In this document: positions 1 to 43,789 of the stretch, one piece after another
How the letters are laid out: every line of letters starts with the position of its first letter
How positions within the stretch are numbered: position 1 is the stretch's first letter
Virus record (IMG/VR): IMGVR_UViG_3300037479_000281
Origin: a virus
Strand: one strand, 5' to 3'
Length of the DNA stretch: 43,789 bases
Notes under the pieces: generated by a model
Told to the model about the DNA's origin: nothing
The model's database searches: none
What the model saw: only the letters and a program-made list of their open reading frames with translations
Translations under genes and position numbers: made by a program

Positions 1-127
1 CAGCGACTCCAACTCAGGGACGAGTGAGGCCTCGCCGTGGGCCACCATCGCCAAGGCGATCGGCTCCGGCGTCAGCACGCCAGTTGTCCAGGGGGACACT
101 ATCCACCTGCGCGGCGGCACCCACACT
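1..127. repeat. Terminal direct repeat, copy 1 (identical to 43663..43789)
   Basis: Bases 1..127 match 43663..43789 exactly by direct comparison. The frame stays open across the junction. Confidence 0.95.
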
Positions 128-8009: not shown

Positions 8010-8862
8010 GTGGCGCCTCCTCCGGCAGCGGATCTTCGGCCGCGCAGCGCCGCAGATCCGCCAACGCGCGCTCCGTCGTCGCAAAGAAATGCGGCGCCGG
8101 CTTGCCTGGTCGCGACGCGCGATAGATGAGCGTCCCGGCACGATGCGGGCCGACCTCTTTCTCTAGCGCCAGGCCGCGCTCGCCGGCGATGACGACAGCC
8201 CAGCCGGCGCGGCAATGCGTGGTGCCGCAATGCCCATCTCGATGCCACGTGGACATGTCGAGCGTGCCGCGCGCCTGATCGCCCTCGACAGCGGAGAGAA
8301 TCGCCGCATCGATGTGCGGAACGATTGGGACGTCGAGCGGCTTCGCGGTGACTTGTTGTGCGAAATCGGGCGGCAGACCTTTCGCGCCTGCCAAGTCCGC
8401 GCCGGCCAAGTACGCGTCGGCCAAGTCCGCGCCGGCCAAGTTCGCGCCGGCCAAGTACGCGCCGGCCAAGTCCGCGTCGGCCAAGTACGCGTCGGCCAAG
8501 TACGCGCGGGCCAAGTTCGCGTCGGCCAAGTCCGCGCCGGCCAAGTTCGCGCCGGCCAAGTACGCGCCGGCCAAGTCCGCGTCGGCCAAGTACGCGTCGG
8601 CCAAGTACGCGCGGGCCAAGTTCGCGTCGGCCAAGTCCGCGCGGGCCAAGTTCGCGCCGGCCAAGTCCGCGCGGGCCAAGTTCGCGCCGGCCAGGTACGC
8701 GCCGGCCAGGTACGCGCGGGCCAGGTTCGCGCACTGAGGCTCCGCATCGCCAGGGTTGTGATGCGGCTTGCTCCGGTCGCGCAGCCAGGCCTGATGCGGA
8801 GCGTACCAGGCGTGCTTCGTCAGGTGATCAGGGATAGGGCCGATGCAGAGGTTTTCGCTCAT
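7996..8862 (-). CDS. Pentapeptide-repeat protein with a Cys/His-containing C-terminal domain (288 aa)
   Basis: There are 23 consecutive A(D/N/Y)LA(G/R/D) pentapeptides. They are followed by a globular domain containing [18 protein letters not shown]. Confidence 0.9.
8386..8730. repeat. 23 phased 15-bp tandem units, including a perfect 2 x 105-bp duplication at 8416..8625
   Basis: Units of the form GYSKGCCARGTNCGC were counted directly. Units 3 to 9 (8416..8520) are identical to units 10 to 16 (8521..8625). Confidence 0.95.
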
Positions 8863-20584: not shown

Positions 20585-20849
20585 AGACTCCTATCAGCGC
20601 CGGCTGAAGCTCGATCGTCTTGCCAAAGAGCTGAGCGATGATTATGAGCGCAACCAGTCTGAATGCGCTCATCGGTGGGTAACTACCATGACCCCTTCCT
20701 GCGCTGAGATTCGTTGCCATGATTGCAATCTCGCAGGTGGGTCAATCTACATCCGTGATGGCCAGTCTATCCAGGATGCGGAAGAGGCTTTCGCTGATCT
20801 TTGCTATTCAGCGATCGAGCGCTTTGGTGGCGAGAGGTTCAAGCCATGA
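20577..20849 (+). CDS. Hypothetical protein upstream of terL, possible small terminase (90 aa)
   Basis: An AGGAGGAG RBS precedes the GTG at 20577. There is an ATGA overlap with terL. Confidence 0.5.
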   Translation: MSEDSYQRRLKLDRLAKELSDDYERNQSECAHRWVTTMTPSCAEIRCHDCNLAGGSIYIRDGQSIQDAEEAFADLCYSAIERFGGERFKP

Positions 20850-22423
20850 CCACCAAGGCCCCGGCGAAGCCGCGCTCCAATGCTGCGCTTCTGCGCGAGG
20901 CCCAGCGCTTGGAGGCCGCGCTCGCCGCGCTTGACCGCCAAGAGCGCCTCAAGCGCACGCGGTTCCTCCCCTCCCAGCAAAAGCTCATCGACGCCTACAA
21001 CGACCCGGCTGTCAAGACCATCCTCTTCCTCGGGGCCAACCAGTCGGGGAAGACCGACGCCTCGGCCCGCTGCCTTTGCGCCACGGCGCTTGGCGTCCAG
21101 CCCTGGGACAACCGGCCGCGTCGCTTTCGGCCGCCGGTTCGGATCGCGGTCCTCCTTGAGGACTACGACAACCACGCCTTCATCTACGCCGAGCAGAAGG
21201 TCATTGAGCTGATGCCGCCGGGGGCCGTCGAGATCATCGAGCGCACCCAGCGGGGAGCCCCGCGGGTCCTGCGTTTTAAGGAGACCGGCTCGACGGTCCA
21301 CCTTTTTACGAAGGACCAGGAGTCCCGGCGGCTCGAGTCGGCGACCTGGCATGAGCTCTACGTCGATGAGCCCTGCGCCCGCTCGGACTTCATCGCTCTC
21401 TCCCGCGGCCTACAGAAGTTCGACGGGAAGACCGTGATGACGATGACACCGCTCTCCGAGCCCTGGATCTTTGACGAGATCTACACCAGGGCTGGGAACC
21501 TCGGGGGCGACAAGGGCTCGATCTTCGCCATCACCACCTTCCCCGACGAGAATAAACAGTCCCAAGGTGGCTACCTCTCCGATGCCGGCGTCGATGAGTT
21601 CCGCGCGAAGATGTCCGAGGAGGAGCGCGAGGCGCGCGTCCATGGCCGCTTCCTGCACCTCCTCGGACGGGTCTATAAGAACTTCGATGAATCGATTCAC
21701 GTTCTGAAGGAGCACCCGGTGCCCGCCGAGGAGCGCTGCCACGGCGTGACGATCGACCCGCACGACCGCTTGCCCTGGGCCATCGCCTGGTTCTATGTGA
21801 CCCCCGGAGGCGACATCGTCTTTTACGATGAGTGGCCGCACGAGGCCTTCGAGGAGATCCGGGACTCGAAATTGGTCGTCAACGATTACGCCAAGATTCT
21901 GAAGGACCATGGGTCGACTGTCTACCGCTTCATGGACCCCAATGCCGGCCGCCGCCGCTCGGTCTTGACCGGCATGACGATCGCCGAGGCGATGCAGGCT
22001 CTCTCCGATGAGGCGAACCCGCTTTTCTTCGAGACCCGCATCAACGACGACCTCCAAGACGGCCATGAGTCCGTGCGCTCCCGCCTGGCCTGGAACAAGG
22101 ATAAGCCGCGCGACCCCTCGAACCAGCCGCGGCTCTACTTCCTCGACTCCTGCCGTAATCTGATCCGCTCCCTGCGCTCTTATATATGGGAGGACTGGCG
22201 CGGAAAGGTTGGGGAGGGGAAGCCGCTGAAAGAGAAGCCGCAGGAGAAGTTCAAGCACTTCCCCGACTGCGTCCGCTATACCTGCATCATGGATCCCCGC
22301 TGGCACACTCTTGGCCGCACTGAGCCACTGCGTCGAGAAGGCAATGTGATCCACTTCCGGCCCGGCTGGGAGGGCGGGGATCTGCGCTGGAAGATCCGCG
22401 AGCGCTTGAGGGCTAAGGCATGA
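20846..22423 (+). CDS. terL: Terminase large subunit
   Basis: Walker A is GANQSGKT and Walker B is ELYVDEP, followed by a C-terminal nuclease-type region. The gene lies immediately upstream of the portal, with an ATGA overlap. Confidence 0.85.
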   Translation: MTTKAPAKPRSNAALLREAQRLEAALAALDRQERLKRTRFLPSQQKLIDAYNDPAVKTILFLGANQSGKTDASARCLCATALGVQPWDNRPRRFRPPVRIAVLLEDYDNHAFIYAEQKVIELMPPGAVEIIERTQRGAPRVLRFKETGSTVHLFTKDQESRRLESATWHELYVDEPCARSDFIALSRGLQKFDGKTVMTMTPLSEPWIFDEIYTRAGNLGGDKGSIFAITTFPDENKQSQGGYLSDAGVDEFRAKMSEEEREARVHGRFLHLLGRVYKNFDESIHVLKEHPVPAEERCHGVTIDPHDRLPWAIAWFYVTPGGDIVFYDEWPHEAFEEIRDSKLVVNDYAKILKDHGSTVYRFMDPNAGRRRSVLTGMTIAEAMQALSDEANPLFFETRINDDLQDGHESVRSRLAWNKDKPRDPSNQPRLYFLDSCRNLIRSLRSYIWEDWRGKVGEGKPLKEKPQEKFKHFPDCVRYTCIMDPRWHTLGRTEPLRREGNVIHFRPGWEGGDLRWKIRERLRAKA

Positions 22424-24564
22424 AAGAGAATCCGATCGTCGCCGATGATCTGAAGATCGGCACCTTCCAGGACTTCAAGGACCACGTCGGGAAGATCATC
22501 ACCCGTGTCAACGGAGACCAGCAGGCTCGCCACGAGTGGCTCGAGCGCCAGGCGCGCTACTACCGACGCCGCTACGCCCGCGAGGGCCGCAATGTCGATG
22601 ACCCCTGGCCCGGCGCCTCCGACATCGTCATCCCGACGATGGACATGTCGATCGACCGGATGAAGGCCACGCTCTCGCGCATGATCTTCACTCGGCCAAT
22701 GGTCGACTTTGTCGCTCGCAAATCCGCGAGCCTCGAGCGGGTCATCAACGCCAGGATCTACTTCGACCACCTATTGAATGAGCGCATCCCGGACTACCGC
22801 GAGCAGGTGATGATCGGGCTCGACCAGATTCTCCAAGACGGCTATTGCGTCTTCAAAGTCATCTGGGACTACCGCACCGAGAAGCAGCAGCACATCCTCA
22901 GGCGTGAAGACCTCCCCAAGGTCTTCCGCATGATGTTCCCTGGTCTTGACGAGGAGGAGGCGGCACGGGAGTCCTTGGACAACCGCCGTTTTCCGCTGGC
23001 CAACTCTGTCCTGAAGCGCTTGATCGACGACAATTTCGAGATCATCGAGGCAAGGATCTCCCGTGAGTTATCCCTCGACCCGGAAGATGAGACGGACAAA
23101 AAGGCGATCCGATCTGTCATCGACTTCCTCAGAAACGGAGAGGAAGAGGTCCGCTACACCACCAAGCAAATCGTCGCCAACAATTCCCGCGTCATTGCCG
23201 TCGACGCCCAGGATTGCATCGTCCCCCCCGGCTCCTTTGATATCCAGGACGCCGAGCGAGTCACTCACCAGATCTTCCTCACCGAGAGCCAGTTCAAGTC
23301 CCGCGCCAAGCACAACGGCTGGAACGAGTCCGCCGCCGAGCTGGTCCTCAACAAGAAGCGCGAAGAGGAGCATTCCACTCGAGGAAGCCGCGAGCGGGAT
23401 AGCATTCTCAACCATTACCGGGACGCCCGGGAGGGGCTTAGTTCCCTCACCACCGATCGGCTCATCAAGATCTGGGAGCACTATTTTTGGCACGACATTG
23501 ACGGTGATGGGGTCCCCGAACGTTGCGTCACGCTGATCCATCCGGGCACGCAAACCGTCTTGAAGGCGCCGCGGCAGATCCCTTACACGCATGGGAACTT
23601 CCCCTTCGTCCAGATCAAGTTCGAGATCAACGAGCCGCGCTTCTTCAGCTCCCGCGGCATCCCTGAGAAGATCGACGACATTGACCGCGAGATAACGATC
23701 CGGCACCGCATGAAGCTCAATAAGCTCGAGATGCTCGTGCCGATGTTCAAGTACAGGATCGGCTCTGGCTTCAGCCCCCACAATATGGTCTTTAAGCCAG
23801 GGACCTGCGTGCCGGTGGGGAACCTCGATGACTTCGATGCGATCCAGTTCCCCGACTTCACCGCCGGGGATCGCTTCGAGGAGAACGATCTCTTCACGCT
23901 CATTCAGCGCTACCTTGGCGGGCTCGACTCCGGCCTCGTTGCACAGGACAACCTGAGCGAGGCGCGCACCGCAACCGAGATTGCCGCGATCCAACGCACG
24001 GCCTCAGAGAGCTTGACCTATAAGGGGCTTATCATCCAGACTGGGATGAAGAAGCTCTACAACATGATCTGGGATCTCGAGAACCAGTACATGCCGAAAG
24101 AGGTCTGGCTCCGGGTGACGGGATCGGAGATGACCCGGCTCACCAAAGAGCAGATTATCGGCGATTTCGAGATCGTTCCCATCGGCACGATTGAGAACAC
24201 TGACTCGGCGGCCGAACGCCAGGCGGCCTTCACCCGGTTCCAGGCGCTGCTCCAGATCGCCCAGCTTGGCCCCGCGGCCCTGGGGCCCGAGTTCCAGATC
24301 GATCTTGGGCAGGCCTTGATGGCCTGGCTGAGGCGCGACAACGCCAACGATGCGCAAGTCATCGTGCGCCAACGCAAGCCGGAGGAGATCGAAGCCCTGA
24401 AGGCCCAGCAGGCTCAGCAGCAAGAACTTGCCCAGCGTGTTGAGGGCAATCAGGGCGTCACCGTCGAGGAGGCCCGCTCGATCATGTCGCAGGCGAAGTC
24501 CAAGATGCCCTTTGGCCCTAGCACCAGGATTTTAGCGAATGCCGGACAGCGACGAGCTGGATAG
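22420..24564 (+). CDS. Portal protein (714 aa)
   Basis: The call rests on size, on position between terL and the scaffold/capsid genes, and on coupling to terL. Confidence 0.75.
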   Translation: MKENPIVADDLKIGTFQDFKDHVGKIITRVNGDQQARHEWLERQARYYRRRYAREGRNVDDPWPGASDIVIPTMDMSIDRMKATLSRMIFTRPMVDFVARKSASLERVINARIYFDHLLNERIPDYREQVMIGLDQILQDGYCVFKVIWDYRTEKQQHILRREDLPKVFRMMFPGLDEEEAARESLDNRRFPLANSVLKRLIDDNFEIIEARISRELSLDPEDETDKKAIRSVIDFLRNGEEEVRYTTKQIVANNSRVIAVDAQDCIVPPGSFDIQDAERVTHQIFLTESQFKSRAKHNGWNESAAELVLNKKREEEHSTRGSRERDSILNHYRDAREGLSSLTTDRLIKIWEHYFWHDIDGDGVPERCVTLIHPGTQTVLKAPRQIPYTHGNFPFVQIKFEINEPRFFSSRGIPEKIDDIDREITIRHRMKLNKLEMLVPMFKYRIGSGFSPHNMVFKPGTCVPVGNLDDFDAIQFPDFTAGDRFEENDLFTLIQRYLGGLDSGLVAQDNLSEARTATEIAAIQRTASESLTYKGLIIQTGMKKLYNMIWDLENQYMPKEVWLRVTGSEMTRLTKEQIIGDFEIVPIGTIENTDSAAERQAAFTRFQALLQIAQLGPAALGPEFQIDLGQALMAWLRRDNANDAQVIVRQRKPEEIEALKAQQAQQQELAQRVEGNQGVTVEEARSIMSQAKSKMPFGPSTRILANAGQRRAG

Positions 24565-24871
24565 CCTCCGCCAAATGGCCGAGCGCTTGAAGCGCTTGGT
24601 CGAGGAGCGCGGCGGGCAGGAGAGCCTGAAGTCGATCCTCGTGGCCCATCTCGACGGGGCCATGCGGCGGCTGATGAAGGTTACCGAGCCGATCGAGTTT
24701 CAACGAATGATCGGCCGCTACCAGGCGGTCATTGCGATCATGGACACGATCTACGGCCAATTGGAGCTCTTCCAGGTCCGGATCGATGAGCTCGAGGCTC
24801 GCAAACGCGAGCAAGAGATGAGCGAGCAGCCACGGCGCATAGAGAGAGGGTTGAAGGACGATGGGTTCTAA
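24539..24871 (+). CDS. Hypothetical coiled-coil protein (110 aa)
   Basis: Sense ORF that overlaps the portal 3' end by 26 nt. Confidence 0.5.
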   Translation: MPDSDELDSLRQMAERLKRLVEERGGQESLKSILVAHLDGAMRRLMKVTEPIEFQRMIGRYQAVIAIMDTIYGQLELFQVRIDELEARKREQEMSEQPRRIERGLKDDGF

Positions 24872-25490
24872 AGTCTTGATCGTTGCGGCCCCACGTTCGG
24901 GCACGCGCTACACGACAGTTCTCCTTGGAAACTGTGGGCTTAACGCCACGCACGAGGTTGTTTTCTCCAAGGACGGCTTCACCCAGTGGCACTCCGATGT
25001 CGATGTCTCCTGGCGCGCCCTGATGCAGCCTGAATCCCTGAGTGGCTGCCAGGTCCTCCACCAGGTGCGGAACCCGCTACGCCAGATCTCAAGCTGGCAA
25101 ACGATGTGCCGCTATACGGTCGAGCGCTATAAGAAAGACCTGAGGCAGGATATGGCCTGGCACCCATTCCAGGAGCTCCTGCCGCTTGGCTGGCCGACGG
25201 CCGCAGTCGCTTACTGGGTCGAGTTCAACCAATTGATCGAGCGGGTCTACCATGCGCCGCCGTTCTTCAAGGTGGAGGAGGCAGAGAGCGCGGTTCCTCT
25301 TGTGGCTCAAATGCTTGGCGTGGAGGTTGACGATGAGACCCTTCGCCTCGCGCTTGAGGCGACGCCCAAGGACACGAACCGTCACCCCGAGCTTCCCCCG
25401 GCAAGCGATCGGATCCTCGAGTGGGACGATCTTCCAGAGAGCGAGTGGAAGGTGAAGGCGAAGGAGCTGGCAGCGAAGTATGGCTATTGA
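24861..25490 (+). CDS. Sulfotransferase-like protein (209 aa)
   Basis: The N-terminal VAAPRSGTRY resembles the 5'-PSB loop (PKSGTT type) and VRNPLRQISSW resembles the 3'-PB motif (RNP.D...S). A GAAGGA RBS is present. Confidence 0.65.
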   Translation: MGSKVLIVAAPRSGTRYTTVLLGNCGLNATHEVVFSKDGFTQWHSDVDVSWRALMQPESLSGCQVLHQVRNPLRQISSWQTMCRYTVERYKKDLRQDMAWHPFQELLPLGWPTAAVAYWVEFNQLIERVYHAPPFFKVEEAESAVPLVAQMLGVEVDDETLRLALEATPKDTNRHPELPPASDRILEWDDLPESEWKVKAKELAAKYGY

Positions 25491-26448
25491 CCCCATGTTT
25501 GGCCTGGGGATCCTCTCCCAGGGCGAGACCATCACGAGCCCTGAGCAGCATCGCTTGATCGCCAAGCGGGCTTGGCTTCAGCTTTGGGACTACCTCTCCC
25601 TCAATGACGAGCATCTCCTGGCCTCGCAGATCCCGGTCCCCTGGTCGCTCGATGAGGACCGAGACTTGAAGCTGCACCTGGACTCAAGCCAGGCGAAATT
25701 GCGCCGCTTCGAGAGCCCCGAGGCGCTCCGCCAGTACATCGTCGGCTCCGAGCGCTACGAGGATGAGCGGATCCTCACGGCCCTGGAGAAGATCCCGAGC
25801 GATTCCCGCTGGCAGCGGATGAACTGGATCCTGAATGAGATCCAGGCCGAGAACCCGCTCTCGATTCTTGACGTTGGCTCGGGCTGGGGCGAGATCGCAT
25901 TTATGCTCGGAGTTTTGAAGCGTAACGTCGTCTCACTGGCGCCAAATCCAGCCGTTCGCCGCATCCTTGAGCCCAAGGTGCGCGATGCGAAGATCAATGT
26001 ACGCTTCGTCGATAAGCTCTTTGAGGAGATTACGCCCAAGGAAGGTGCCTTCGATCTGGTCCTTCTGGGCGAGGTCATCGAGCACGTCCTTGACGACACC
26101 GAGACGCTCCAGAAGGCTTGCCTTCTCGCCCGGCGCACGGTGTTGCTTACAACTCCGGTCGGAAGTTGCGAGCAGGGGTTTCACCCCAATGCTGACTGGC
26201 GTTCACACGATGAGCACCTTCGCGCCTACTCAAGGAAACGCTTTGAGGAGCTTCTCTCAAAGGCTCCTCAATTCCGCACTGTCGGAGATATCCAGGTGAT
26301 CGCCGAGATCGTCGGCCATCGCCAGCAACCCCTCAATTGCTTCTGCGTGAAGCTCAGGAGGATCCGCGATGATTGTGTCCAGCTTGCCGAGAATGGAAAC
26401 GGTCTACGGGACGAAGCCGAAGCCGGGGCCGTCGGCTCACTTCGGTAG
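25480..26448 (+). CDS. Class I SAM-dependent methyltransferase (322 aa)
   Basis: Motif I is ILDVGSGWGEIA. The post-I and motif II/III-like segments are VRFVDKLFEE and FDLVLLGEVIEHV. Confidence 0.8.
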   Translation: MAIDPMFGLGILSQGETITSPEQHRLIAKRAWLQLWDYLSLNDEHLLASQIPVPWSLDEDRDLKLHLDSSQAKLRRFESPEALRQYIVGSERYEDERILTALEKIPSDSRWQRMNWILNEIQAENPLSILDVGSGWGEIAFMLGVLKRNVVSLAPNPAVRRILEPKVRDAKINVRFVDKLFEEITPKEGAFDLVLLGEVIEHVLDDTETLQKACLLARRTVLLTTPVGSCEQGFHPNADWRSHDEHLRAYSRKRFEELLSKAPQFRTVGDIQVIAEIVGHRQQPLNCFCVKLRRIRDDCVQLAENGNGLRDEAEAGAVGSLR

Positions 26449-26623: not shown

Positions 26624-27400
26624 ATGGCAGAAGAAGAGCTTTCTAGCGCCGAGAGCCTTGGCCAAGAGCAGGCCGAGGAGACGAGCCGTGAAGGCGGCGG
26701 CAAAGAGAACACCAACCAACGGTTGAAGCGCCAGCGGGATGCGGCGCGCGTCGAGTTGGCCAACCAGAGCCGAAAGCTTGAAGAGCTGGAGCGCGAGCTT
26801 CAGGGCCTTCGATCTACGATCGGCGAGGTTGGCGCGGCGCGTTCCACCGATCCCAACAAAATGCCCATCGAGCGTCTCGATGAGCTCGCTATGGCCGATA
26901 ACCCCGAGTCGCCTGGCACCGCGAACTTCGCTCTTGTCAAAGCCATGCAGCGACGAGAGCAGGCGCTCCAGAAGCGGATCGAGGAGGCCGAGCGCAAAGC
27001 CGAGGAGCGCATCAAAGCAATTGAGCGCGAGCGCGCCCAAGGCGAGCTTCGATCGGAATTGGTGAGCGTGTTTGGGAAGAAGGTCTTGGACCCGGACAGC
27101 GACCTGCGAACGCTTGCCGATGACTTCTACGGCCAGATCATGGGCCCCAACTTCAAGGAGCATGATCCCCGGGTGGTCAAGCTGGCGTTTTACGAGGCGG
27201 AGCGCCGTCTGGCGGCCAAGAAACCCAAAGCCCAAGAGACCAAAAACAAGGACCAAAAGCCTCCAAGGCCTGAAGACCTTGCCGAGGCCGGAAGCTCGTC
27301 ACTCCCTGACCTTGTCGCTGAGTCCCGGGCGGCGCTCGCCAAGGGCGATGTCCGCGGCTCGATGAGGGCCAAGATGGCGCGCCTCCTCAATTCAAGTTGA
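26624..27400 (+). CDS. Scaffolding protein (258 aa)
   Basis: The protein is highly charged with coiled-coil composition. The gene lies directly upstream of the capsid gene. Confidence 0.7.
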   Translation: MAEEELSSAESLGQEQAEETSREGGGKENTNQRLKRQRDAARVELANQSRKLEELERELQGLRSTIGEVGAARSTDPNKMPIERLDELAMADNPESPGTANFALVKAMQRREQALQKRIEEAERKAEERIKAIERERAQGELRSELVSVFGKKVLDPDSDLRTLADDFYGQIMGPNFKEHDPRVVKLAFYEAERRLAAKKPKAQETKNKDQKPPRPEDLAEAGSSSLPDLVAESRAALAKGDVRGSMRAKMARLLNSS

Positions 27401-27409
27401 GCCTGAGAA

Positions 27410-28327
27410 ATGGCTGGTGGAGCACACACCTTCGGAAAGTGGCGCGACGGGGCGCTGAGGGAAGATGTCACCGATGAGATCTTCCAAATCACACCCACGG
27501 ACACGCCGTTTTACAGCGTCACTGGCGACGCCGATGCTTCAAACCCCATGCACCAGTGGTCCACCCGGGCCCTGGCCGCTCGGGCGGTGAACGCGGTCCA
27601 GGAAGGCGCGAACTACACGACCGTCAACGTCAACCTCCCGACCCGCGTCGGGAACCTGCTTCAGATCCTGCGCAAGCTCGCCTCGGCCTCCTACTCCCTC
27701 CAGGCCTCGACCGCCGTCGGCATCGAGGATGTCATGGCGGACCAATCTGCTGTGGCGCTGACGGAGTGGAAGAACGATTGCGAGTTCAACCTTCTCAAGT
27801 CGACGCTCACAACTGGCAACTCCGATGCGACCGCCCGCAAGATGGGCGGCTATCTCCAGGTTGTCGGGCCGGCCAATAACCGCTTCGACTACAACTCGAG
27901 CGGCACTTTTGGGGAGGACATGTTCATCAGCCTCCTGGAATCCATCTGGTCGGACGGCGGCAAGCCGACCGATGTGCTCGTCAACTCGAAGCTGAAGCGC
28001 AAGATCGGCACCTTCAACTTCTCGGCGACGAAGAACATCCTCGCCGAGGATAAGCGCGTCGTCTCCATCGTCAACGTCCTCGAGACGGACTTTGGCATTG
28101 TCGAGGCGCAACTTTGCCGTGACCTGGGGAATGCCACCGGCACCTACCAGATCGCGGCCTTCGATCGCAGCTTCCTCAAGAAGGCCTGGCTGCGACGCCC
28201 GTCGATCAAGGTCATCCCCGAGACTCGCGATGCGACTGATGCGGTCGTGATCGGCGAGGTGACCTTGGAGTACGGCAACAAGGATGCCCTCGGCCTCCAG
28301 ACCGAGATCCTCCACAACGGTCTCTAA
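27410..28327 (+). CDS. Major capsid protein (HK97-fold, DUF5309/SU10-like by recollection)
   Basis: The call rests on the 305-aa size, on position after the scaffold gene, on the strong terminator or attenuator that follows, and on a conserved N-terminal H.W...L / N...EG pattern. Confidence 0.8.
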   Translation: MAGGAHTFGKWRDGALREDVTDEIFQITPTDTPFYSVTGDADASNPMHQWSTRALAARAVNAVQEGANYTTVNVNLPTRVGNLLQILRKLASASYSLQASTAVGIEDVMADQSAVALTEWKNDCEFNLLKSTLTTGNSDATARKMGGYLQVVGPANNRFDYNSSGTFGEDMFISLLESIWSDGGKPTDVLVNSKLKRKIGTFNFSATKNILAEDKRVVSIVNVLETDFGIVEAQLCRDLGNATGTYQIAAFDRSFLKKAWLRRPSIKVIPETRDATDAVVIGEVTLEYGNKDALGLQTEILHNGL

Positions 28328-28340
28328 CCCTTTCGACGCT

Positions 28341-28377
28341 GCTGGTGGCTGGCCCCCTCCGGCCACCAGCGCTTTTC
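28341..28377 (+). terminator. Rho-independent terminator or attenuator after the capsid gene
   Basis: GCTGGTGGC (28341..28349) pairs with GCCACCAGC (28362..28370) and is followed by GCTTTTC. Confidence 0.7.
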
Positions 28378-28380
28378 ACT

Positions 28381-28824
28381 ATGGAACCAGCTCTCCGATC
28401 TGTTCCGCCCTGTTTCTATCGCTTCGGGGTGATGCAGTCGCATGCCAGCATCCGCACGACGATCGAGAACGTCTCGAAGTCCTGGCGCCGGCTCTACCCT
28501 CTCGAGGTCGATGCCTGCCTGCGGATCGTCGACCACATTCGCCAGTCGCTTCACCGTCCCAATGCCGTCTCGGAGGAGAAACTCACGCTCCTGCGCTCGG
28601 TCAAGACCAACCGCCTAAACGGCGTCATGTGCCACATTTTCGGGCAGCAGTGGGAGCGGGATCCGGTCGTCTCGAAGATCTTCTATGAGGTCTTCGCCAA
28701 GCTCCTCGTCAACGAGAAGTCGGTGCCGATCATCAAGAACCCGGTCTCGGTCCTCGATGGCGCGCACTTTAACGACATTCAAAGCGAGTTCGCCTACCAG
28801 CATTTCATGGAGTCTGCCAAGTGA
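28381..28824 (+). CDS. Hypothetical protein coupled to the glycosyltransferase (about 147 aa)
   Basis: This is the first ATG after the terminator; the ORF-track start at 28345 lies inside the hairpin. There is a GTGA overlap with the GT gene. Confidence 0.5.
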   Translation: MEPALRSVPPCFYRFGVMQSHASIRTTIENVSKSWRRLYPLEVDACLRIVDHIRQSLHRPNAVSEEKLTLLRSVKTNRLNGVMCHIFGQQWERDPVVSKIFYEVFAKLLVNEKSVPIIKNPVSVLDGAHFNDIQSEFAYQHFMESAK

Positions 28825-31208
28825 GGCCGAAGCTTTCGGTGTCGATGATTGTCAAGAACGAGGAGCTGGGCCTGCCCCTGGTGCTCCAGTCGCTTCCAGG
28901 CCAGATCATCGATGAAATTGTCGTCGTTGACACGGGCTCCGAGGATCGCACGGTCCAGGAGGCCAAGGCCTTCGATGCCATGGTCCACCACTACGAGGAC
29001 CCGGATCCGATCGAGATCGATGGCTCGAGATGCCTCTCCGACTTCGCCGCCGCGCGGAACTTTGCTTTCTCAAAGTGCTCGGGCGACTTCATCCTTTGGA
29101 TCGATGGCGATGATTACTTCTTCGGCGCCCAGGAGTTCGCCAGGCACTGGCTGAAACAGATCGACTTCGGACGCACCGGCGTCCTTGGGATGTCCTACGA
29201 CTATGAGCACGATGAGGAGGGCAACTGCATCATGCGCCACCCGCGCGAGCGGATCGTTCGCGCCGGCACGCATGTCTGGCGCAGCCCGATCCACGAGGTG
29301 CTCTGCGCGCTGCGCGTGACTGGCGCCGCTTGGATTCCGCCAGCGCTTGCCCGGATTGTCCACAACGATTGCGGCGAGAACCGCCAAAGGAAGGCCAGGC
29401 GCAATGCCGCGGTCGCCGAGCGCTTCATTGCCCGCTCGGGCAATAACGTCGAGGCGCGGATGTGGCTCAACTATGGGAACTCGCTCGCTTGTTGCGGACG
29501 GCACGATGAAGCCATTGCGGCTTACGAGAAGTACCTCTCCATGAGCAAGTGGCAGGATGAGAAGTACTCCTGTCTCCTCGCTATGGCCAACTGCTACGGC
29601 GCGCTCAACCAAGAGGACCAGAGGATCTTCGCGGTCCTGAAGGCCGTCCACATGCGGCCGGACTACCGGGAGGCCTACCTCGAGCTTGCCGACCTGGCGC
29701 TCCAGATGGGCGACCCGAAGAATGCGATCTTCTGGTCGAACCTCGCCGATGCCCAAGAGAAGAACAATCTCGGCTACAAGGGCAACCCGTTCTTCCTCGA
29801 GAGCCGGGCAGCCGAGGTCCGCATGCACGCTCTCGCCAAAATGAACCGCTTCGAGGAGGCGATCGTCGAAGCCGACAAGCTGCTTGCGACCTATCCGGGG
29901 AATCACCGCGTCCTTGGGAAGAAGACCTTCTGCGCGTGCATGGCGCGCGAGCAGAAGCTGGAGGAGTCCTGGAAACTGATCGAGAACGCGCTCCTTTCAG
30001 ACGGCACGCCAGAGAAGCTGAAAGTCATGCAGCGCTGCGTGCCGGAGCAGCTTCTCGATTCGCCGCTCGTCGAGTTGCCGAGCGCCTCTGGCCGAAAGCC
30101 CGACCAGCCGACGATCGCATTTTACTGCGATGCGAACCTGACTCCCTGGTCCTACGACTCGATCGAGCGCGGCGGGGTCGGTGGCTCCGAGACCGCCGTC
30201 ATCCGCATGGCCGAGGCCCTTGCGGCGATTGGCTGGAATGTCGAGGTCTACGGTTACCCGGAGGAGGGCAAGGAAGGACTTCACAATGGAGTCTGGTGGT
30301 TTCCATTCTGGCGGATCGCGCACGCTCGGCCATTCGATGTCCTCATCAACTGGCGCCGCTGGAGCTTCAAGGCGCAGCCCCCAGCGGCCAAGGTCTCCTA
30401 TGTCTGGTGCCACGACGTTTTGAACCCCTACTACTGGCCCGATGCCTCCTGGCGCCAGTACAAGGGGATCATCGTCCTCTCCGAGGCTCACAAGGCGAAC
30501 GCCGTCGAAGCGGTTCCGATGGAGAAGCTGATCCTCTCCCGGAACGGCCTCGATCCCTCGTTCTGGTCGGGCCCTGAGGTCCCGCGCGACCCGCACCGGC
30601 TGATCTACGCCTCCTGTCCCTCGCGTGGGCTTGTCATCCTCGCGGATCTTTGGCCGCGGATCAAAGCCGAGTTTCCCGACGCCGAGCTGGATGTCTTCTA
30701 CGGCTTCAACAACGTCTTTCTCGATCAGATGCGCCGCTCGCAAGAGCACCGGAACGTTTTCGAGCGAACGCACGAGCTGGCCCGCCAGCGCGGCGTCAAC
30801 TACCACGGCATGGTCGACCAGGCAACCCTTGGGGCGGCCTTTCGGCGCGCTGGGCTCTGGGCCTATCCTTGCACGTTCCCGGAGATCTCCTGCATCACCG
30901 CGATGCAGGCGCAGGCTTGTGGCGCGGTGCCGGTGACGACGAGATTCTGGGCCCTTGACGAGACGGTTCGATATGGCCTACGGGTGGGTGACAAGGATCT
31001 TCGCCTCGATGAGATGGCCCATGGCCCCGAGCTTTGGCTCCGGGCGCTCCGCCGGGCCATGGATCCCGCGTGGCAAGAGACGATCAGAAAGGACATGGTG
31101 CCATGGGCGCAGGCCTTCTTCCCCTGGGAGAAAGTGGCGAGGGAGTGGGATCGGACGTTCAAGCAGGACCTTCGCTATTCGCCGGTGGCTTTGGCCGCCG
31201 TCGCATAG
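28821..31208 (+). CDS. Dual-domain glycosyltransferase: N-terminal GT2 (GT-A), TPR repeats, C-terminal GT4-like (GT-B), 795 aa
   Basis: The GT2 signature is SVSMIVKNEE...EIVVVDTGSEDRT...ARNFAFS...WIDGDD (DxD). The TPR-like helices span about residues 200 to 340. The C-terminal domain has GGVGGSETAV and FPEISCITAMQAQACGAVPVTT...DETV. Confidence 0.85.
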   Translation: MRPKLSVSMIVKNEELGLPLVLQSLPGQIIDEIVVVDTGSEDRTVQEAKAFDAMVHHYEDPDPIEIDGSRCLSDFAAARNFAFSKCSGDFILWIDGDDYFFGAQEFARHWLKQIDFGRTGVLGMSYDYEHDEEGNCIMRHPRERIVRAGTHVWRSPIHEVLCALRVTGAAWIPPALARIVHNDCGENRQRKARRNAAVAERFIARSGNNVEARMWLNYGNSLACCGRHDEAIAAYEKYLSMSKWQDEKYSCLLAMANCYGALNQEDQRIFAVLKAVHMRPDYREAYLELADLALQMGDPKNAIFWSNLADAQEKNNLGYKGNPFFLESRAAEVRMHALAKMNRFEEAIVEADKLLATYPGNHRVLGKKTFCACMAREQKLEESWKLIENALLSDGTPEKLKVMQRCVPEQLLDSPLVELPSASGRKPDQPTIAFYCDANLTPWSYDSIERGGVGGSETAVIRMAEALAAIGWNVEVYGYPEEGKEGLHNGVWWFPFWRIAHARPFDVLINWRRWSFKAQPPAAKVSYVWCHDVLNPYYWPDASWRQYKGIIVLSEAHKANAVEAVPMEKLILSRNGLDPSFWSGPEVPRDPHRLIYASCPSRGLVILADLWPRIKAEFPDAELDVFYGFNNVFLDQMRRSQEHRNVFERTHELARQRGVNYHGMVDQATLGAAFRRAGLWAYPCTFPEISCITAMQAQACGAVPVTTRFWALDETVRYGLRVGDKDLRLDEMAHGPELWLRALRRAMDPAWQETIRKDMVPWAQAFFPWEKVAREWDRTFKQDLRYSPVALAAVA

Positions 31209-31217
31209 AGGCCTTCG

Positions 31218-31328
31218 ATGAGGAACTCGATCATGAGCTCGAAGAAGAAGAGCGGCGGGAAAGGGAAGCGCAAAGGCGCAAGTCGGCGAGGACGCGGAAA
31301 GCCCGGGAAGCCCGGGATGCGCTACTGA
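31218..31328 (+). CDS. Possible 36-aa highly basic peptide
   Basis: The translation is MRNSIMSSKKKSGGKGKRKGASRRGRGKPGKPGMRY. It is in the same frame as the GT gene, 9 nt after its TAG stop. Confidence 0.25.
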   Translation: MRNSIMSSKKKSGGKGKRKGASRRGRGKPGKPGMRY

Positions 31329-31342
31329 GCGCCGAACGCGAG

Positions 31343-31546
31343 TTGCGCCAGGTCTTTGGCCAGGCCCTCGTTCCGGCGCACCAGGATGAGCTGAAGCTCC
31401 AGGCGATCCGTGACCACCTCGTCAAGGACTTGGGCCTCACCGACCCCGAGTCCCAGCGGGTGGCGATCCGGCGCCTGCGGCTTGAGAACCCGGCGCGGCG
31501 AAAGCCGGCGCTCGACACCATTTTTGATCGGGTGGCACGCCGATGA
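31343..31546 (+). CDS. Hypothetical protein; the 5' end is unresolved (minimal TTG-started version, 67 aa)
   Basis: There is an ATGA overlap with the downstream gene. The frame is open back to 31208 with protein-like acidic sequence, but there is no ATG/GTG/TTG upstream of 31343. Confidence 0.4.
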   Translation: MRQVFGQALVPAHQDELKLQAIRDHLVKDLGLTDPESQRVAIRRLRLENPARRKPALDTIFDRVARR

Positions 31547-32499
31547 ATGTCTCCTTTGCAGACCTTGTCGAGGCGGTCCGCGAGTTCGTGCAGGCGCCGG
31601 AGACGGTGCTTCCCATCATTCGCCGCGAGGTGAATGCCGAATACAAGCGCCTTGCCCGCAGCGCCAATCTGAGCGAGACTCAGGGCTACCTGAACGAAAG
31701 CGTGGCCCTGGTCTCTGGCCAGGCCTACCTCGCGCTCCCGGGCGATGCGGTCGGGATCGTCTCCATCAGCGATAAGACGAACGAGTTCTCGCTCAGGCGC
31801 AAGGATTTGAAGCACGCGCTCCAGGACGCGGTCTACCGGATCGACACGACAGGCGATGTCCTCTACTACGCCGAGCTCGGCTACCGGGCCACCAAGCGCC
31901 CGCTTTCGGTCAATGATCAGGTGCGGATTCAGGCTTCGGCCGGGCTTACGATCGAGGCGACGGTTCGCGTCCGTGGGCTCCAGGCGACGACGAACATTCC
32001 GACCTTCGACACCCTGACGACGAGCGGCACCTCAGGCGTCGATGGCACCGAGCAATTCCGCCTTGGCTGGTCGATCGACTCGATCGGGACCGATGGAACT
32101 GTCGACGCGGGCTATATCACGATCACCGAGAAGACGACGACAGCCAACGTCCTTGGCTACATTCCAAAGGGCGAGAAGCAATCGCGGTTCTACGTTCTCC
32201 ACCTCGAGAATCCGCCGGATGCCGGCGACAACTTGAATATCGTCTACTTGAAGGGCCTCCGGGATCTCGAGGTCGATGATGATGTGATCGCGATCCCCGA
32301 GATGGCCGAAGCCATCGTCGAGGGAGCTATAGCCAAGATGCGCATGCACGACCGCGCTTACGACCAGGGCGCGATGCACGCTTCAACCGCTCTCCAGCAC
32401 CGCCAAGCCGTTCTCTTTGAACGCGAATCCAAGGGCGAGCAGGGCGCGCACCAAGCGCGACCGGATCTCCGCGGACGAGGTTTCCGCAGGGCCTACTGA
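31543..32499 (+). CDS. Head-tail adaptor / tail tubular A-like structural protein (318 aa)
   Basis: The call is based on position within a podovirus-like gene order only. No motif was recognised. Confidence 0.4.
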   Translation: MNVSFADLVEAVREFVQAPETVLPIIRREVNAEYKRLARSANLSETQGYLNESVALVSGQAYLALPGDAVGIVSISDKTNEFSLRRKDLKHALQDAVYRIDTTGDVLYYAELGYRATKRPLSVNDQVRIQASAGLTIEATVRVRGLQATTNIPTFDTLTTSGTSGVDGTEQFRLGWSIDSIGTDGTVDAGYITITEKTTTANVLGYIPKGEKQSRFYVLHLENPPDAGDNLNIVYLKGLRDLEVDDDVIAIPEMAEAIVEGAIAKMRMHDRAYDQGAMHASTALQHRQAVLFERESKGEQGAHQARPDLRGRGFRRAY

Positions 32500-40169: not shown

Positions 40170-40552
40170 TGTCAAGTCCGCAGCTCGATCGCATGGGGCG
40201 CATGTTCACAATGCCTGGCGGCTCCCGTGAGGCCGTCACCAGCGCAACGGCAACATTCACTGCCAGCACAACTGAAGCCACAGTCCTCGCTGCCGGCGGC
40301 GCCGGGGTTTTTCACGACGTTGTCCTGATCGTGGTTGCCAATACCTCTGCCGCAACTGCGACTCGGGTAGATATCCGTGCGACAACTGGCGGCACGGTGA
40401 TCGCGTCAGTGAACGTTGTCGGTGGCGCCACGGCTGTTTTGCCGTTCTCTGTGCCGCTCTCTCAGCCAGCCGCGGATGCTGCTTGGACGGCGCAATGCAG
40501 CGTGTCGACGACTGACGTTCGGGTGTTCATTACTGCCGTCAAGGCGTTCTGA
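40169..40552 (+). CDS. Small Ala/Thr/Val-rich beta-type structural protein (127 aa)
   Basis: It is coupled on both sides and precedes the tailspike. Confidence 0.5.
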   Translation: MSSPQLDRMGRMFTMPGGSREAVTSATATFTASTTEATVLAAGGAGVFHDVVLIVVANTSAATATRVDIRATTGGTVIASVNVVGGATAVLPFSVPLSQPAADAAWTAQCSVSTTDVRVFITAVKAF

Positions 40553-43631: not shown

Positions 43632-43789
43632 TGGCCAACTACTTCGTGGCCGCCTCGGGCGGCAGCGACTCCAACTCAGGGACGAGTGAGGCCTCGCCGT
43701 GGGCCACCATCGCCAAGGCGATCGGCTCCGGCGTCAGCACGCCAGTTGTCCAGGGGGACACTATCCACCTGCGCGGCGGCACCCACACT
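43631..43789 (+). CDS. 5' part of the junction-spanning beta-helix tailspike gene (continues at 2..1306)
   Basis: The GTG at 43631 overlaps the upstream TAG. Codon phase carries through the 127-bp repeat into frame 2 at the window start. Confidence 0.8.
   Translation, partial: MANYFVAASGGSDSNSGTSEASPWATIAKAIGSGVSTPVVQGDTIHLRGGTHT
43663..43789. repeat. Terminal direct repeat, copy 2
   Basis: Exact match to 1..127. Confidence 0.95.

What the first reader, a model, noticed from the sequence alone, without database searches (positions are those of the whole stretch)
28381..31208. 795-aa GT2-TPR-GT4 dual glycosyltransferase and a coupled unknown gene directly behind the capsid-gene attenuator
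Immediately after the capsid gene's hairpin terminator (28341..28377) come an unknown ORF and a GTGA-coupled 795-aa protein. That protein fuses a GT-A domain (DTGSEDRT, DGDD), TPR repeats and a GT-B domain (GGSETAV, the E..7..E-type C-terminal motif). Two glycosyltransferase domains in one polypeptide could add two successive sugars. The TPR module is a plausible adaptor for recognising a protein substrate such as capsid, scaffold or tailspike. Placement behind an attenuator fits a low-abundance enzyme co-expressed with its structural substrate.
Basis: partly seen in the sequence, partly recalled or inferred. Interest (0 to 1): 0.72.

Follow-up and report, generated by a model that had tools for sequence, protein, structure and literature searches.

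The report
Capsid-adjacent two-headed phage protein glycosyltransferase
A complete 43.7-kb phage genome carries, just after its capsid gene, a small conserved helical protein and a 795-residue enzyme that joins two sugar-transferring domains through a protein-binding repeat; hundreds of uncultured phages share this layout, so sugar-coating of phage particles is probably much more common than the few proven cases.

Summary
After the SU10-type capsid gene (27410-28327) comes a strong hairpin (28340-28371). Next is a real small gene (28381 or 28432 to 28824), then a GTGA-coupled 795-aa protein (28821-31208) built GT-A / TPR / GT-B (AlphaFold pLDDT 93.9). DTGSEDRT, DGDD and GGSETAV are present and conserved. 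The "E-x7-E" is actually E688-x7-Q696.

The N-terminal GT2 domain is closest to enzymes that glycosylate proteins or peptides: Listeria GmaR (flagellin O-GlcNAc transferase) and the glycocin S-glycosyltransferases SunS and ThuS. The GT-B half resembles GT4 enzymes such as PimA only by fold.

At least 507 IMG/VR contigs encode relatives. In 66 of 81 loci examined an SU10-type capsid gene lies upstream on the same strand (median gap 452 nt). Five more loci place the enzyme downstream of a different capsid family.

The "unknown ORF" belongs to a new small-protein family (hhalign 98.8%) that tracks the capsid gene, not the enzyme. Genes after the enzyme are often extra GTs, methyltransferases and NDP-sugar enzymes.

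Best reading: a phage-encoded system that glycosylates a virion protein, probably the capsid. This is inferred, not shown. It is a new variant of a known kind.

The parts
27410..28327 (+). Major capsid protein (SU10 type), the gene the cassette follows and the leading candidate acceptor
   Evidence: Pfam SU10_MCP 2.4e-65 and PHROG 1328 major head protein. An SU10-type capsid gene lies upstream of the GT on the same strand in 66/81 loci.
28340..28377 (+). Stem-loop directly after the capsid stop codon (13-bp stem, 6-nt loop, CUUUUC tail): terminator/attenuator-like or an mRNA 3' stabiliser
   Evidence: dG -27.6, z -4.5. A hairpin at the same position has z < -2 in 57/67 related loci, without sequence conservation.
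28381..28824 (+). Small helical protein (147 aa from ATG 28381, or 130 aa from ATG 28432); member of a new capsid-linked family with no Pfam or PHROG match
   Evidence: Coding-like GC3 of 0.80. The family HMM hits only this frame among 632 window frames (E 3.5e-4, next best 3.2). hhalign of its own subfamily against the family gives 98.8%, E 6e-17. No Pfam or PHROG match. AF2 model all-helical, pLDDT 64.8.
28821..31208 (+). 795-aa soluble GT-A / TPR / GT-B glycosyltransferase (GTG start overlapping the upstream TGA)
   Evidence: No transmembrane segment (maximum KD19 1.43).
28821..29375 (+). GT-A (GT2) domain, GmaR/SunS-like; DTGS at 28929-28940, DGDD at 29103-29114, HE at 29292-29297
   Evidence: Pfam PF00535 56.3 bits. 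GmaR 22ao at E 1.4e-12 with the single sequence and 2e-44 with the profile. D95, D98, H158 and E159 invariant; D37 and D97 at least 90% conserved.
29382..30035 (+). TPR / helical-repeat domain (aa 188-405), the presumed acceptor-docking module
   Evidence: Pfam TPR_14, TPR_8 and TPR_2 above cut-off. Helices 188-405 in the AF2 model. Profile matches to the TPRs of OGT and SPY and to the helical domain of ThuS.
30111..31169 (+). GT-B domain (aa 431-783), GT4-like by fold; GGSE at 30180-30191, HD at 30411-30416, E688-x7-Q696 at 30882-30908
   Evidence: Foldseek: PimA 2gej TMt 0.70, 7fga 0.73, 7qsg 0.68, 6kih 0.65. phmmer: 6kih 9e-7. G454, G455, S456, E457, H531, D532, R602 and E688 invariant.
25480..26448 (+). 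Class I SAM methyltransferase between the portal and scaffold genes; probable accessory of the same pathway (glycan O-methylation)
   Evidence: Pfam Methyltransf_23/11/25 and UbiG-like in NCBIfam. Homologues lie directly after the GT or are fused to it in at least 11 related loci. Methyltransferases are among the commonest downstream neighbours.
24861..25490 (+). 209-aa orphan with sulfotransferase-like PRSGT and RNPLRQISS motifs; a possible accessory, weakly supported
   Evidence: Pfam Sulfotransfer_3 only E 0.009, below cut-off. No homologue found and no PDB match. The motif reading rests on general knowledge of PAPS-binding loops.
31145..31546 (+). Charged ~110-133-aa ORF between the GT and the adaptor gene; no start codon after the GT stop, and the public call starts 64 nt inside the GT
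31543..32499 (+). SU10-type head-to-tail adaptor, the downstream boundary of the insertion site
   Evidence: Pfam SU10_adaptor 1.9e-10. Adaptor homologues lie downstream of the GT in related loci.

Best explanation
The 795-aa protein is a soluble, late-expressed, phage-encoded bifunctional protein glycosyltransferase that decorates a virion structural protein, most probably the major capsid protein.

Proposed mechanism:
1. The central TPR superhelix docks the protein acceptor.
2. The N-terminal inverting GT2 domain (GmaR/SunS type) uses a host NDP-sugar and a DxD-bound metal to put the first sugar on a Ser/Thr, or possibly Cys, side chain.
3. The C-terminal GT-B domain (GT4-like, presumably retaining) adds a second sugar.
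4. The SAM methyltransferase encoded between the portal and scaffold genes may then methylate the glycan.

The gene sits in the head operon behind a conserved post-capsid hairpin, which would give a low enzyme-to-capsid ratio. In relatives the same enzyme anchors a variable 'glyco-island' between the capsid gene and the adaptor gene.

Shown: the domain architecture, the conserved catalytic residues, the similarity to protein GTs, the synteny and the neighbouring gene content.
Inferred: the acceptor identity, the sugar identity, the order of action of the two domains, and the role of the hairpin.
For: Architecture and intact active sites:
- AF2 model pLDDT 93.9.
- Invariant D95, D98, H158, E159, GGSE 454-457, H531, D532, R602 and E688 in 51 homologues at a mean column identity of 29%.

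Protein-GT affinity of the GT2-TPR half:
- Profile matches: GmaR E 2e-44, SunS 7e-32, ThuS 1e-24 extending to profile position 354. The single sequence matches GmaR at 1.4e-12.
- GmaR transfers GlcNAc to flagellin, and its TPR is proposed to recognise flagellin (PMC9638930).
- TPR followed by GT-B is the order seen in OGT and SPY.
- No transmembrane segment.

Link to the capsid gene:
- At least 507 viral contigs encode relatives.
- In 66/81 loci an SU10-type capsid gene lies upstream on the same strand; the median gap is 452 nt and 50 gaps are under 700 nt.
- In 5 further loci the enzyme lies 0.9-5.6 kb downstream of an unrelated 405-aa major head protein (phrog_14242).
- The three-domain form is essentially confined to phage contigs. 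Bacterial genomes mostly hold only the GT2-TPR part.

Glyco-island:
- Among 127 proteins from roughly 70 loci (up to two + strand ORFs of at least 130 aa starting within 2.5 kb after each GT): 17 GT1, at least 16 methyltransferases, 13 GT2, 7 NDP-sugar epimerase/dehydratases, 3 NTP-transferases, 3 rhamnosyl O-methyltransferase-like.
- GT-methyltransferase fusions occur in L014, L027 and L044.

Precedents:
- Mycobacteriophage capsid and tail-tube glycosylation by phage GTs (Freeman 2023, as cited in PMC11256854 and PMC12619734).
- Chlorovirus A064R, a GT-GT-methyltransferase protein that builds the capsid glycan (PMC9614988).
Against: - No biochemical or virion data exist for any member; every member is an uncultured metagenomic sequence.
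- Synteny within a head operon shows co-expression, not a substrate relationship.
- The capsid protein has no Ser/Thr-rich C-terminal extension like the glycosylated mycobacteriophage capsids.
- The Ser/Thr positions specific to GT-bearing capsids (T132, T135, S163) are also kept in three GT-less relatives, so they may simply be clade markers.
- The GT-B half reaches no curated Pfam threshold, and its second EX7E glutamate is Gln here.
- The closest structural relatives of the GT-B half act on lipids, sugars or small molecules.
- 10 of 81 loci show no recognised capsid gene near the enzyme.
Confidence: 0.5

Rival explanations
1. Host-directed modification. The enzyme glycosylates a host protein or surface structure (flagellin, pilin, S-layer or another receptor) late in infection. 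The purpose would be to mask receptors, block superinfection, or keep progeny from sticking to debris.
For: The closest characterised relative of the GT2 domain, GmaR, glycosylates flagellin. The cellular GT2-TPR homologues are abundant in flagellated or spore-forming Firmicutes. Receptor modification is a classic role proposed for phage GTs (PMC10202952).
Against: The gene is embedded in the head module between the capsid and adaptor genes rather than in an early or lysogeny module. That position is kept across two unrelated capsid families. The protein is cytoplasmic and soluble. No flagellin gene lies within 8 kb of 80 cellular homologues, although that test used a flagellin sequence recalled from memory and is weak. 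No integrase was seen among the window ORFs scanned.
Confidence: 0.2
2. The dedicated acceptor is the small helical protein encoded just upstream. As with glycocin precursors and SunS/ThuS, the enzyme would glycosylate a Ser/Thr in an inter-helix loop, and the glycoprotein would then act as a capsid accessory or decoration.
For: The two genes are translationally coupled (GTGA). SunS and ThuS, relatives of the GT2 domain, act on small helical peptides encoded next to them. The subfamily containing ORF147 has an invariant Ser/Thr (15/15) in the predicted loop between helices 40-58 and 65-87. The small ORF and the GT co-occur strongly in capsid-anchored sampling: 18 both, 4 small only, 1 GT only, 40 neither; Fisher p 5e-11.
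Against: The small ORF follows the capsid gene, not the GT: in L061 it sits after the capsid gene, 8 kb from the GT. 14 GT loci lack it, and 4 loci have it without the GT. The loop Ser/Thr is not universal in the wider family. The co-occurrence statistic is confounded by phylogeny. The ORF147 model is low-confidence and has no structural match.
Confidence: 0.1
3. Non-protein acceptor. The enzyme builds or modifies a free or lipid-linked oligo- or polysaccharide or a small molecule (a host envelope polymer or compatible solute). The TPR would serve in complex assembly rather than acceptor recognition.
For: The GT-B domain's nearest structures are PimA, sucrose-phosphate synthase, GlgM and a methylmannose polysaccharide mannosyltransferase. 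Neighbouring genes in relatives resemble polysaccharide clusters: epimerases, dehydratases, NTP-transferases and further GTs.
Against: There is no membrane anchor and no flippase, polymerase or export gene in the window. The GT2 half groups with protein/peptide GTs rather than with polysaccharide synthases. The head-operon position is conserved.
Confidence: 0.12
4. DNA hypermodification: the enzyme glycosylates hydroxymethylated bases of the phage genome.
For: Phage GTs often glycosylate DNA. The window encodes a C5 cytosine DNA methylase at 6895-7731.
Against: No TET/JBP-type dioxygenase or hydroxymethylase was detected next to the methylase or elsewhere among the ORFs scanned. The GT lies 21 kb away in the head operon, carries a TPR, and resembles protein GTs rather than the T4-type or 5hmC GTs.
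Confidence: 0.03

Closest known systems
Listeria monocytogenes GmaR (flagellin O-GlcNAc transferase; GT2 domain + TPR; PDB 22ao, PMC9638930)
   Same: An N-terminal ~180-aa GT2 domain followed directly by a TPR domain. The window residues 1-99 align closely with GmaR from its N-terminus, including MRPxxSxxxIVKNEE, VDTGS, DFxAARNFA and DxD. GmaR acts on a structural protein that polymerises into a large assembly.
   Different: GmaR continues into linker and antirepressor domains and has no GT-B domain. It is a cellular regulator and enzyme, not a phage head-operon gene. The window protein has a 14-residue insert (EDPDPIEIDGSRCL). The acceptor and sugar of the window protein are untested.
Glycocin S/O-glycosyltransferases SunS and ThuS (PDB 7msn/7msp, 7msk)
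   Same: A GT2 catalytic domain plus a C-terminal helical (TPR-like) domain that recognises a protein or peptide acceptor. SunS is itself prophage-derived (SPbeta). Profile E-values are 7e-32 and 1e-24, and they are top Foldseek hits.
   Different: The score against the SunS equivalog model TIGR04195 is 21.7 bits against a cut-off of 350. There is no bacteriocin precursor, immunity gene or transporter. A GT-B domain is added.
O-GlcNAc transferase / SPINDLY (GT41: N-terminal TPR + GT-B)
   Same: A TPR superhelix immediately N-terminal to a GT-B catalytic domain, and these enzymes have protein acceptors. They give the highest-ranking whole-chain Foldseek hits (8dth 1e-16).
   Different: Whole-chain TM-scores are only about 0.3 with rmsd of about 22 Å. 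The GT-B domain superposes better on GT4 enzymes (TMt 0.65-0.73). GT41-specific features were not examined. OGT and SPY have no GT-A domain.
Mycobacteriophage virion glycosylation (Che8, Rita; Freeman et al. 2023, cited in PMC11256854 and PMC12619734)
   Same: Phage-encoded GTs that put glycans on capsid and tail-tube subunits of tailed phages and form a glycan shield.
   Different: There the GT genes lie near the right end of the genome, not behind the capsid gene. The glycans sit on C-termini of the capsid and tail-tube subunits, and the window capsid protein has no Ser/Thr-rich C-terminal tail. I did not compare the enzymes directly, and the primary paper was not readable. The hosts are actinobacteria.
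Chlorovirus PBCV-1 A064R and A111/114R (multi-domain GT/methyltransferase proteins that build the capsid glycan; PMC9614988)
   Same: Soluble, virus-encoded, multi-domain transferases (GT + GT + methyltransferase) acting on the major capsid protein. Relatives of the window protein occur as GT2-TPR-GT-B-methyltransferase fusions (L014, L027, L044).
   Different: No sequence relationship was shown. No TPR is listed among the A064R domains. They make N-linked glycans in a eukaryotic virus with a different capsid fold.

Membership tests
CAZy GT2 / Pfam Glycos_transf_2 (GT-A fold, inverting) | Match to the family model above the curated threshold | tested here: met
   PF00535 at 56.3 bits against a cut-off of 23.3, aa 6-132.
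CAZy GT2 / Pfam Glycos_transf_2 (GT-A fold, inverting) | DxD metal/NDP-binding motif and the upstream nucleotide-binding Asp, conserved | tested here: met
   D37 (at least 90%), D95 (invariant), D97 (at least 90%) and D98 (invariant) in 37- and 51-sequence alignments. The AF2 model has a GT-A beta/alpha core.
GmaR-type protein O-GlcNAc transferases | Sequence relationship of the GT2 domain plus a following TPR | tested here: met
   22ao_A at E 1.4e-12 (single sequence) and 2e-44 (profile). TPR Pfam hits above cut-off.
GmaR-type protein O-GlcNAc transferases | Transfers GlcNAc to flagellin Ser/Thr; antirepressor domain that binds MogR | not testable with these tools
   Enzymology is needed. The C-terminal part here is a GT-B domain, not an antirepressor domain.
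SunS family peptide S-glycosyltransferase (NCBIfam TIGR04195) | Equivalog model score above cut-off | tested here: not met
   21.7 bits against a cut-off of 350. The protein is related, but not a member.
CAZy GT4 / Pfam Glycos_transf_1, Glyco_trans_1_4, Glyco_transf_4 (GT-B, retaining) | Match to the family models above the curated threshold | tested here: not met
   20.2 vs 27, 17 vs 26.4 and 19 vs 28.5 bits.
CAZy GT4 / Pfam Glycos_transf_1, Glyco_trans_1_4, Glyco_transf_4 (GT-B, retaining) | GT-B two-Rossmann fold similar to GT4 structures | tested here: met
   Foldseek: PimA 2gej TMt 0.70, 7fga 0.73, 7qsg 0.68, 6kih 0.65.
CAZy GT4 / Pfam Glycos_transf_1, Glyco_trans_1_4, Glyco_transf_4 (GT-B, retaining) | EX7E motif | tested here: inconclusive
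   The first Glu is present and invariant (E688 = PimA E274). The second position is Gln696 here and E, Q or K across the family.
GT41 (OGT/SPY) | TPR N-terminal to a GT-B catalytic domain | tested here: met
   Domain order in the AF2 model and the Foldseek top hits.
GT41 (OGT/SPY) | Catalytic-domain similarity specific to GT41 | tested here: not met
   Whole-chain TM about 0.3 and rmsd about 22 Å. Only the TPR region matches by sequence (profile positions ~204-317). The GT-B domain fits GT4 enzymes better.
TPR repeat proteins | TPR models above the curated threshold and a helical-hairpin superhelix | tested here: met
   TPR_14 at 38.3 vs 23.5, TPR_8 at 32.4 vs 25.7, TPR_2 at 29.6 vs 27. Paired helices span 188-405.
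Phage virion glycosylation systems (mycobacteriophage type) | Glycans covalently attached to virion proteins and dependent on phage GT genes | not testable with these tools
   Requires virions or heterologous co-expression with mass spectrometry.
Rho-independent terminator/attenuator | G+C-rich stem-loop followed by a U-tract | tested here: inconclusive
   The stem is strong (13 bp, z -4.5) but the tail is only CUUUUC, i.e. 4 U. Positional conservation of a hairpin in 57/67 loci fits either a terminator or an mRNA stabiliser.

The most novel reading that the evidence does not exclude
Many uncultured phages, mostly of this podophage-like type and probably infecting Gram-negative and other non-actinobacterial hosts, coat their capsids with phage-made, often methylated, glycans. 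These are built by a hypervariable 'glyco-island' inserted between the capsid gene and the adaptor gene. The island is anchored by a two-headed GT2-TPR-GT-B enzyme in which one TPR platform presents the capsid protein to two active sites. The island would then be the phage counterpart of an O-antigen locus, giving capsid 'serotypes' that affect grazing, adhesion to particles or mucus, and antibody or lectin recognition.
Probability: 0.35. Interest if true: 0.82.

Novelty: new variant of a known kind. Interest (0 to 1): 0.64.

Why it matters
According to the papers I could read, glycosylation of tailed-phage virions has been shown experimentally only in mycobacteriophages. Phage GTs are otherwise usually annotated by default as DNA-modifying or serotype-converting.

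Here one enzyme family, with at least 507 viral contigs, is tied to the capsid gene, resembles protein glycosyltransferases, and is flanked by a variable set of sugar-modifying genes. If it does glycosylate the capsid, three things follow:
- Virion glycan coats would be a common feature of environmental phages.
- Phage annotation pipelines would gain a marker for it.
- The enzyme would be a compact tool for site-directed protein di-glycosylation.

The small capsid-linked protein family is also new and has no assigned function.

Tried and rejected
- A single-protein scan of viral contigs found nothing. The family alignment was needed.
- Pattern scans with the small-ORF alignment and with the broad capsid alignment failed for lack of a conserved stretch.
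- Direct BLASTP of ORF147 against the Manatee Spring neighbour showed no similarity. Homology appeared only with profiles.
- ORF147: no Pfam, PHROG or NCBIfam hit. The AF2 model is low-confidence (64.8) and has no Foldseek match at E <= 0.001.
- Sulfotransferase idea for the 209-aa ORF: only a sub-threshold Pfam hit, no homologues and no PDB match. It is kept as a weak note.
- Flagellin adjacency of the cellular GT2-TPR homologues: 0 of 80 loci. The test is weak because the query sequence was recalled from memory.
- Search for capsid Ser/Thr sites specific to GT-bearing phages: T132, T135 and S163 stand out, but they are retained in GT-less relatives, so they are clade markers rather than evidence.
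- DNA-glycosylation reading: rejected, because no TET/JBP or hydroxymethylase was found and the gene lies in the head operon.
- -1 frameshift fusion of the GT to the downstream charged ORF: considered and dropped, since there is no slippery heptamer.
- The primary paper on mycobacteriophage virion glycosylation (PMC10527164) is not held.
- Model coordinates are not exposed, so the geometry between the active sites and the TPR groove could not be measured.

Full report
**What is in the window**

The window is a complete, circularly assembled phage genome. Its first 127 nt recur at 43662-43789, and G+C is 62%.

The + strand late operon reads as follows:
- terminase, 20801-22423
- portal, 22420-24564
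- a 209-aa orphan, 24861-25490
- a SAM methyltransferase, 25480-26448
- scaffold-like protein, 26624-27400
- SU10-type major capsid protein, 27410-28327 (Pfam 2.4e-65)
- a hairpin
- a small ORF
- the 795-aa protein
- a short charged ORF
- SU10-type adaptor, 31543-32499
- further tail genes

The hairpin at 28340-28371 has a 13-bp stem and a CUUUUC tail. It is the strongest terminator-like site in 16 kb and folds at -27.6 kcal/mol, z -4.5.

The small ORF has a coding-like codon-position G+C. Its stop overlaps the GTG start of the large gene (GTGA, 28821-28824), with GGAG 8 nt upstream.

**The 795-aa protein**

Pfam finds Glycos_transf_2 (56 bits) and TPR models above threshold. The GT-B family models score below threshold.

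An AlphaFold2 model built on 51 homologues is confident (pLDDT 93.9). It shows a GT-A domain (1-~185), a helical-repeat domain (188-405) and a GT-B domain (431-783). There is no hydrophobic segment.

- D95, D98, H158 and E159 are invariant; D37 and D97 are at least 90% conserved.
- GGSE 454-457, H531, D532, R602 and E688 are invariant in alignments with a mean column identity of about 30%.
- The exception is "E-x7-E". At the position homologous to PimA E274/E282 the window has E688 and Q696, and the second position is E, Q or K in the family.

The GTG start at 28821 is preferable to the publicly called ATG 28845. Residues 1-99 align with GmaR from its own N-terminus, and strand beta1 is modelled confidently.

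**What it resembles**

A family profile searched against all PDB sequences gives, for the GT2 part, GmaR (2e-44), SunS (7e-32) and ThuS (1e-24). The ThuS match continues into the helical domain. The repeat region matches the TPRs of OGT and SPY.

Foldseek ranks SPY, SunS, ThuS and OGT first for the whole chain. For the GT-B half alone it ranks GT4 enzymes: PimA TMt 0.70, 7fga 0.73, 7qsg 0.68, sucrose-phosphate synthase 0.65.

So the N-terminal two-thirds belongs with GT2 enzymes that glycosylate proteins or peptides and use a helical domain to hold the acceptor. GmaR glycosylates flagellin, and its TPR is proposed to recognise it (PMC9638930). The C-terminal two-thirds has the TPR-then-GT-B order of OGT and SPY. 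The protein is not a SunS equivalog (21.7 vs 350 bits). It cannot be filed under GT4 by curated thresholds.

**Distribution and synteny**

The large protein database holds many full-length homologues of 730-860 aa on contigs of 30-45 kb.

An alignment-based scan of IMG/VR found at least 507 contigs encoding relatives, and the best 80 are nearly all full length. In INPHARED the only full-length matches are three identical-length (42,585 bp) Manatee Spring metagenomic records. Their gene order is capsid, a 165-aa hypothetical, this GT, two more GTs, then methyltransferases and a HAS-like synthase.

Of the 81 loci examined:
- 66 have an SU10-type capsid gene upstream on the same strand. The median capsid-to-GT gap is 452 nt, and 50 gaps are under 700 nt.
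- 5 belong to a different phage group in which the GT lies 0.9-5.6 kb downstream of an unrelated 405-aa major head protein, phrog_14242.

In bacterial genome bins the three-domain form is rare. Where context is visible (L172, L200) the contig carries the same capsid cassette, so these are phage contigs. Cellular hits otherwise cover only the GT2-TPR part, mostly in Bacillus, Paenibacillus and Clostridia.

**The small ORF**

The ORFs in the capsid-to-GT gap of 62 loci form one family by phmmer single linkage.
- The family HMM hits the ORF147 frame and nothing else among 632 window frames (E 3.5e-4).
- An exhaustive search gave 14 closer homologues of ORF147.
- Their profile matches the family profile built without the window at hhalign probability 98.8%, E 6e-17.

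The family has no Pfam or PHROG match. It is predicted to be helical. One subfamily carries a four-Cys insertion.

The family follows the capsid gene rather than the GT:
- It is present in 66 of 66 loci with an upstream SU10-type capsid gene.
- In L061 it sits next to the capsid gene, 8 kb from the GT.
- It is absent from 14 GT loci without that capsid type.

I also sampled by capsid similarity alone, counting loci with at least 3 kb downstream of the capsid gene. That gave 18 loci with both, 4 with the small ORF only, 1 with the GT only, and 40 with neither (Fisher p 5e-11). The split follows capsid phylogeny. The family is also absent from 84 loci of the HTVC106P/Lyrsu01-type capsid clade, which lack the GT as well.

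The small protein is therefore best seen as a head-module component of the clade that usually carries the GT. It is not an obligatory partner of the enzyme.

**The hairpin**

A stable stem-loop within 90 nt after the capsid stop codon is found in 57 of 67 loci at z < -2 relative to windows inside the GT gene, with no sequence conservation. This supports a conserved RNA-level feature behind the capsid gene. It does not distinguish attenuation from 3'-end stabilisation of the capsid message.

**Neighbouring genes**

I took up to two + strand ORFs of at least 130 aa starting within 2.5 kb after each GT, which gave 127 proteins from roughly 70 loci. They include:
- 17 GT1/GT4-type proteins
- at least 16 methyltransferases
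- 13 GT2 proteins
- 8 SU10 adaptors
- 7 NDP-sugar epimerase/dehydratases, 5 of them GDP-mannose-dehydratase-like
- 5 radical SAM proteins
- 3 nucleotidyltransferases
- 3 rhamnosyl-O-methyltransferase-like proteins

Larger phage contigs carry whole sugar-activation sets next to homologues. Homologues of the window's methyltransferase lie directly after the GT, or are fused to it, in at least 11 loci.

The window holds the minimal version: the GT behind the capsid gene, with the methyltransferase displaced to the portal-scaffold interval.

**Interpretation**

The best-supported reading is a phage-encoded system that glycosylates a virion protein. In this model the TPR docks the acceptor, the GmaR/SunS-like GT2 domain attaches the first sugar, the GT-B domain extends it, and the methyltransferase may cap it.

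Precedents are mycobacteriophage capsid and tail-tube glycosylation (cited in PMC11256854 and PMC12619734) and the chlorovirus multi-domain capsid-glycan transferases (PMC9614988).

I put this at about 0.5, with the capsid protein as the most likely acceptor. The acceptor, the sugars and the order of the two reactions are inferences.

The rivals are host-surface modification (0.2), a non-protein acceptor (0.12), the small protein as dedicated acceptor (0.1) and DNA glycosylation (0.03). The window does contain a C5 DNA methylase, but no TET/JBP-type partner was found, and the GT is 21 kb away in the head operon.

**Novelty**

No paper in the searchable library describes this family or its capsid linkage. 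It is a new variant of a known kind, virus-encoded glycosylation of virion proteins. What is new is the enzyme architecture (protein-type GT2 + TPR + GT-B), the conserved genomic address, and a phage group outside the actinobacteriophages.

Noticed in passing
window 1-127 and 43662-43789: The first 127 nt are repeated exactly at the end of the window. The contig is therefore a circularly assembled, complete genome of about 43,662 bp.
   Followed up: yes
window 24861-25490 (+): This 209-aa orphan between the portal and methyltransferase genes has PRSGT and RNPLRQISS motifs that resemble the two PAPS-binding loops of sulfotransferases. The Pfam Sulfotransfer_3 hit is only E 0.009. No homologue was found in the 5.8-billion-protein search, and none occurs in the related loci.
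   Followed up: partly
window 25480-26448 (+): A class I SAM methyltransferase with an uncharacterised ~120-aa N-terminal region sits between the portal and scaffold genes. Its homologues lie directly after the GT, or are fused to it, in related phages.
   Followed up: partly
window 31145-31546 (+): The highly charged ORF between the GT and the adaptor has no ATG, GTG or TTG after the GT stop codon. The public call starts 64 nt inside the GT gene and the longest ORF starts at TTG 31034. No slippery site for a frameshift was seen.
   Followed up: partly
window 6895-7731 (-) and 7996-8862 (-): A C5 cytosine DNA methylase and a pentapeptide-repeat protein lie side by side in the early region. No TET/JBP-like gene was detected nearby.
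   Followed up: partly
L014, L027, L036, L038, L050, L052 gap ORFs; P0121-P0239: A large subfamily of the capsid-linked small protein carries an insertion with four conserved cysteines (YCNNC...CCExPQxG), probably a zinc ribbon. The window's ORF147 lacks it.
   Followed up: no
P0039 and P0044: Two homologues of the GT (about 1,175 aa) carry intein/Hint and LAGLIDADG endonuclease Pfam domains (PF14528, PF14890, PF13403). This suggests an intein inserted in the glycosyltransferase.
   Followed up: no
L015 4258-4836 + 5421-5909; L016; L026 8041-8223 + 8927-9502; L071 8451-8615 + 8795-9340: In several related loci the capsid gene matches as two separate ORFs, 180-700 nt apart. Possible causes are an intron, a homing element or a frameshift inside the capsid gene.
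   Followed up: no
window 377-1306 (+) and 40552-42243 (+): There are two right-handed beta-helix proteins (Pfam Beta_helix; NosD-like), probably tailspike or depolymerase proteins. This suggests a polysaccharide receptor on the host.
   Followed up: no
L167 (192-kb contig) and L169 (102-kb contig): Full-length homologues on large phage-like contigs sit in extended glycan clusters. These hold several methyltransferases including sugar C-methyltransferase-like ones, a GHMP kinase, a nucleotidyltransferase, an epimerase and further two-domain GTs.
   Followed up: partly
window capsid residues T132, T135, S163 (nt 27803-27805, 27812-27814, 27896-27898): These positions are Ser/Thr in 87-99% of capsids from GT-bearing loci, against 0-28% in GT-less capsids. 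They are also kept in three GT-less relatives that retain the small ORF. They are candidate sites for mass-spectrometric mapping, not evidence.
   Followed up: partly
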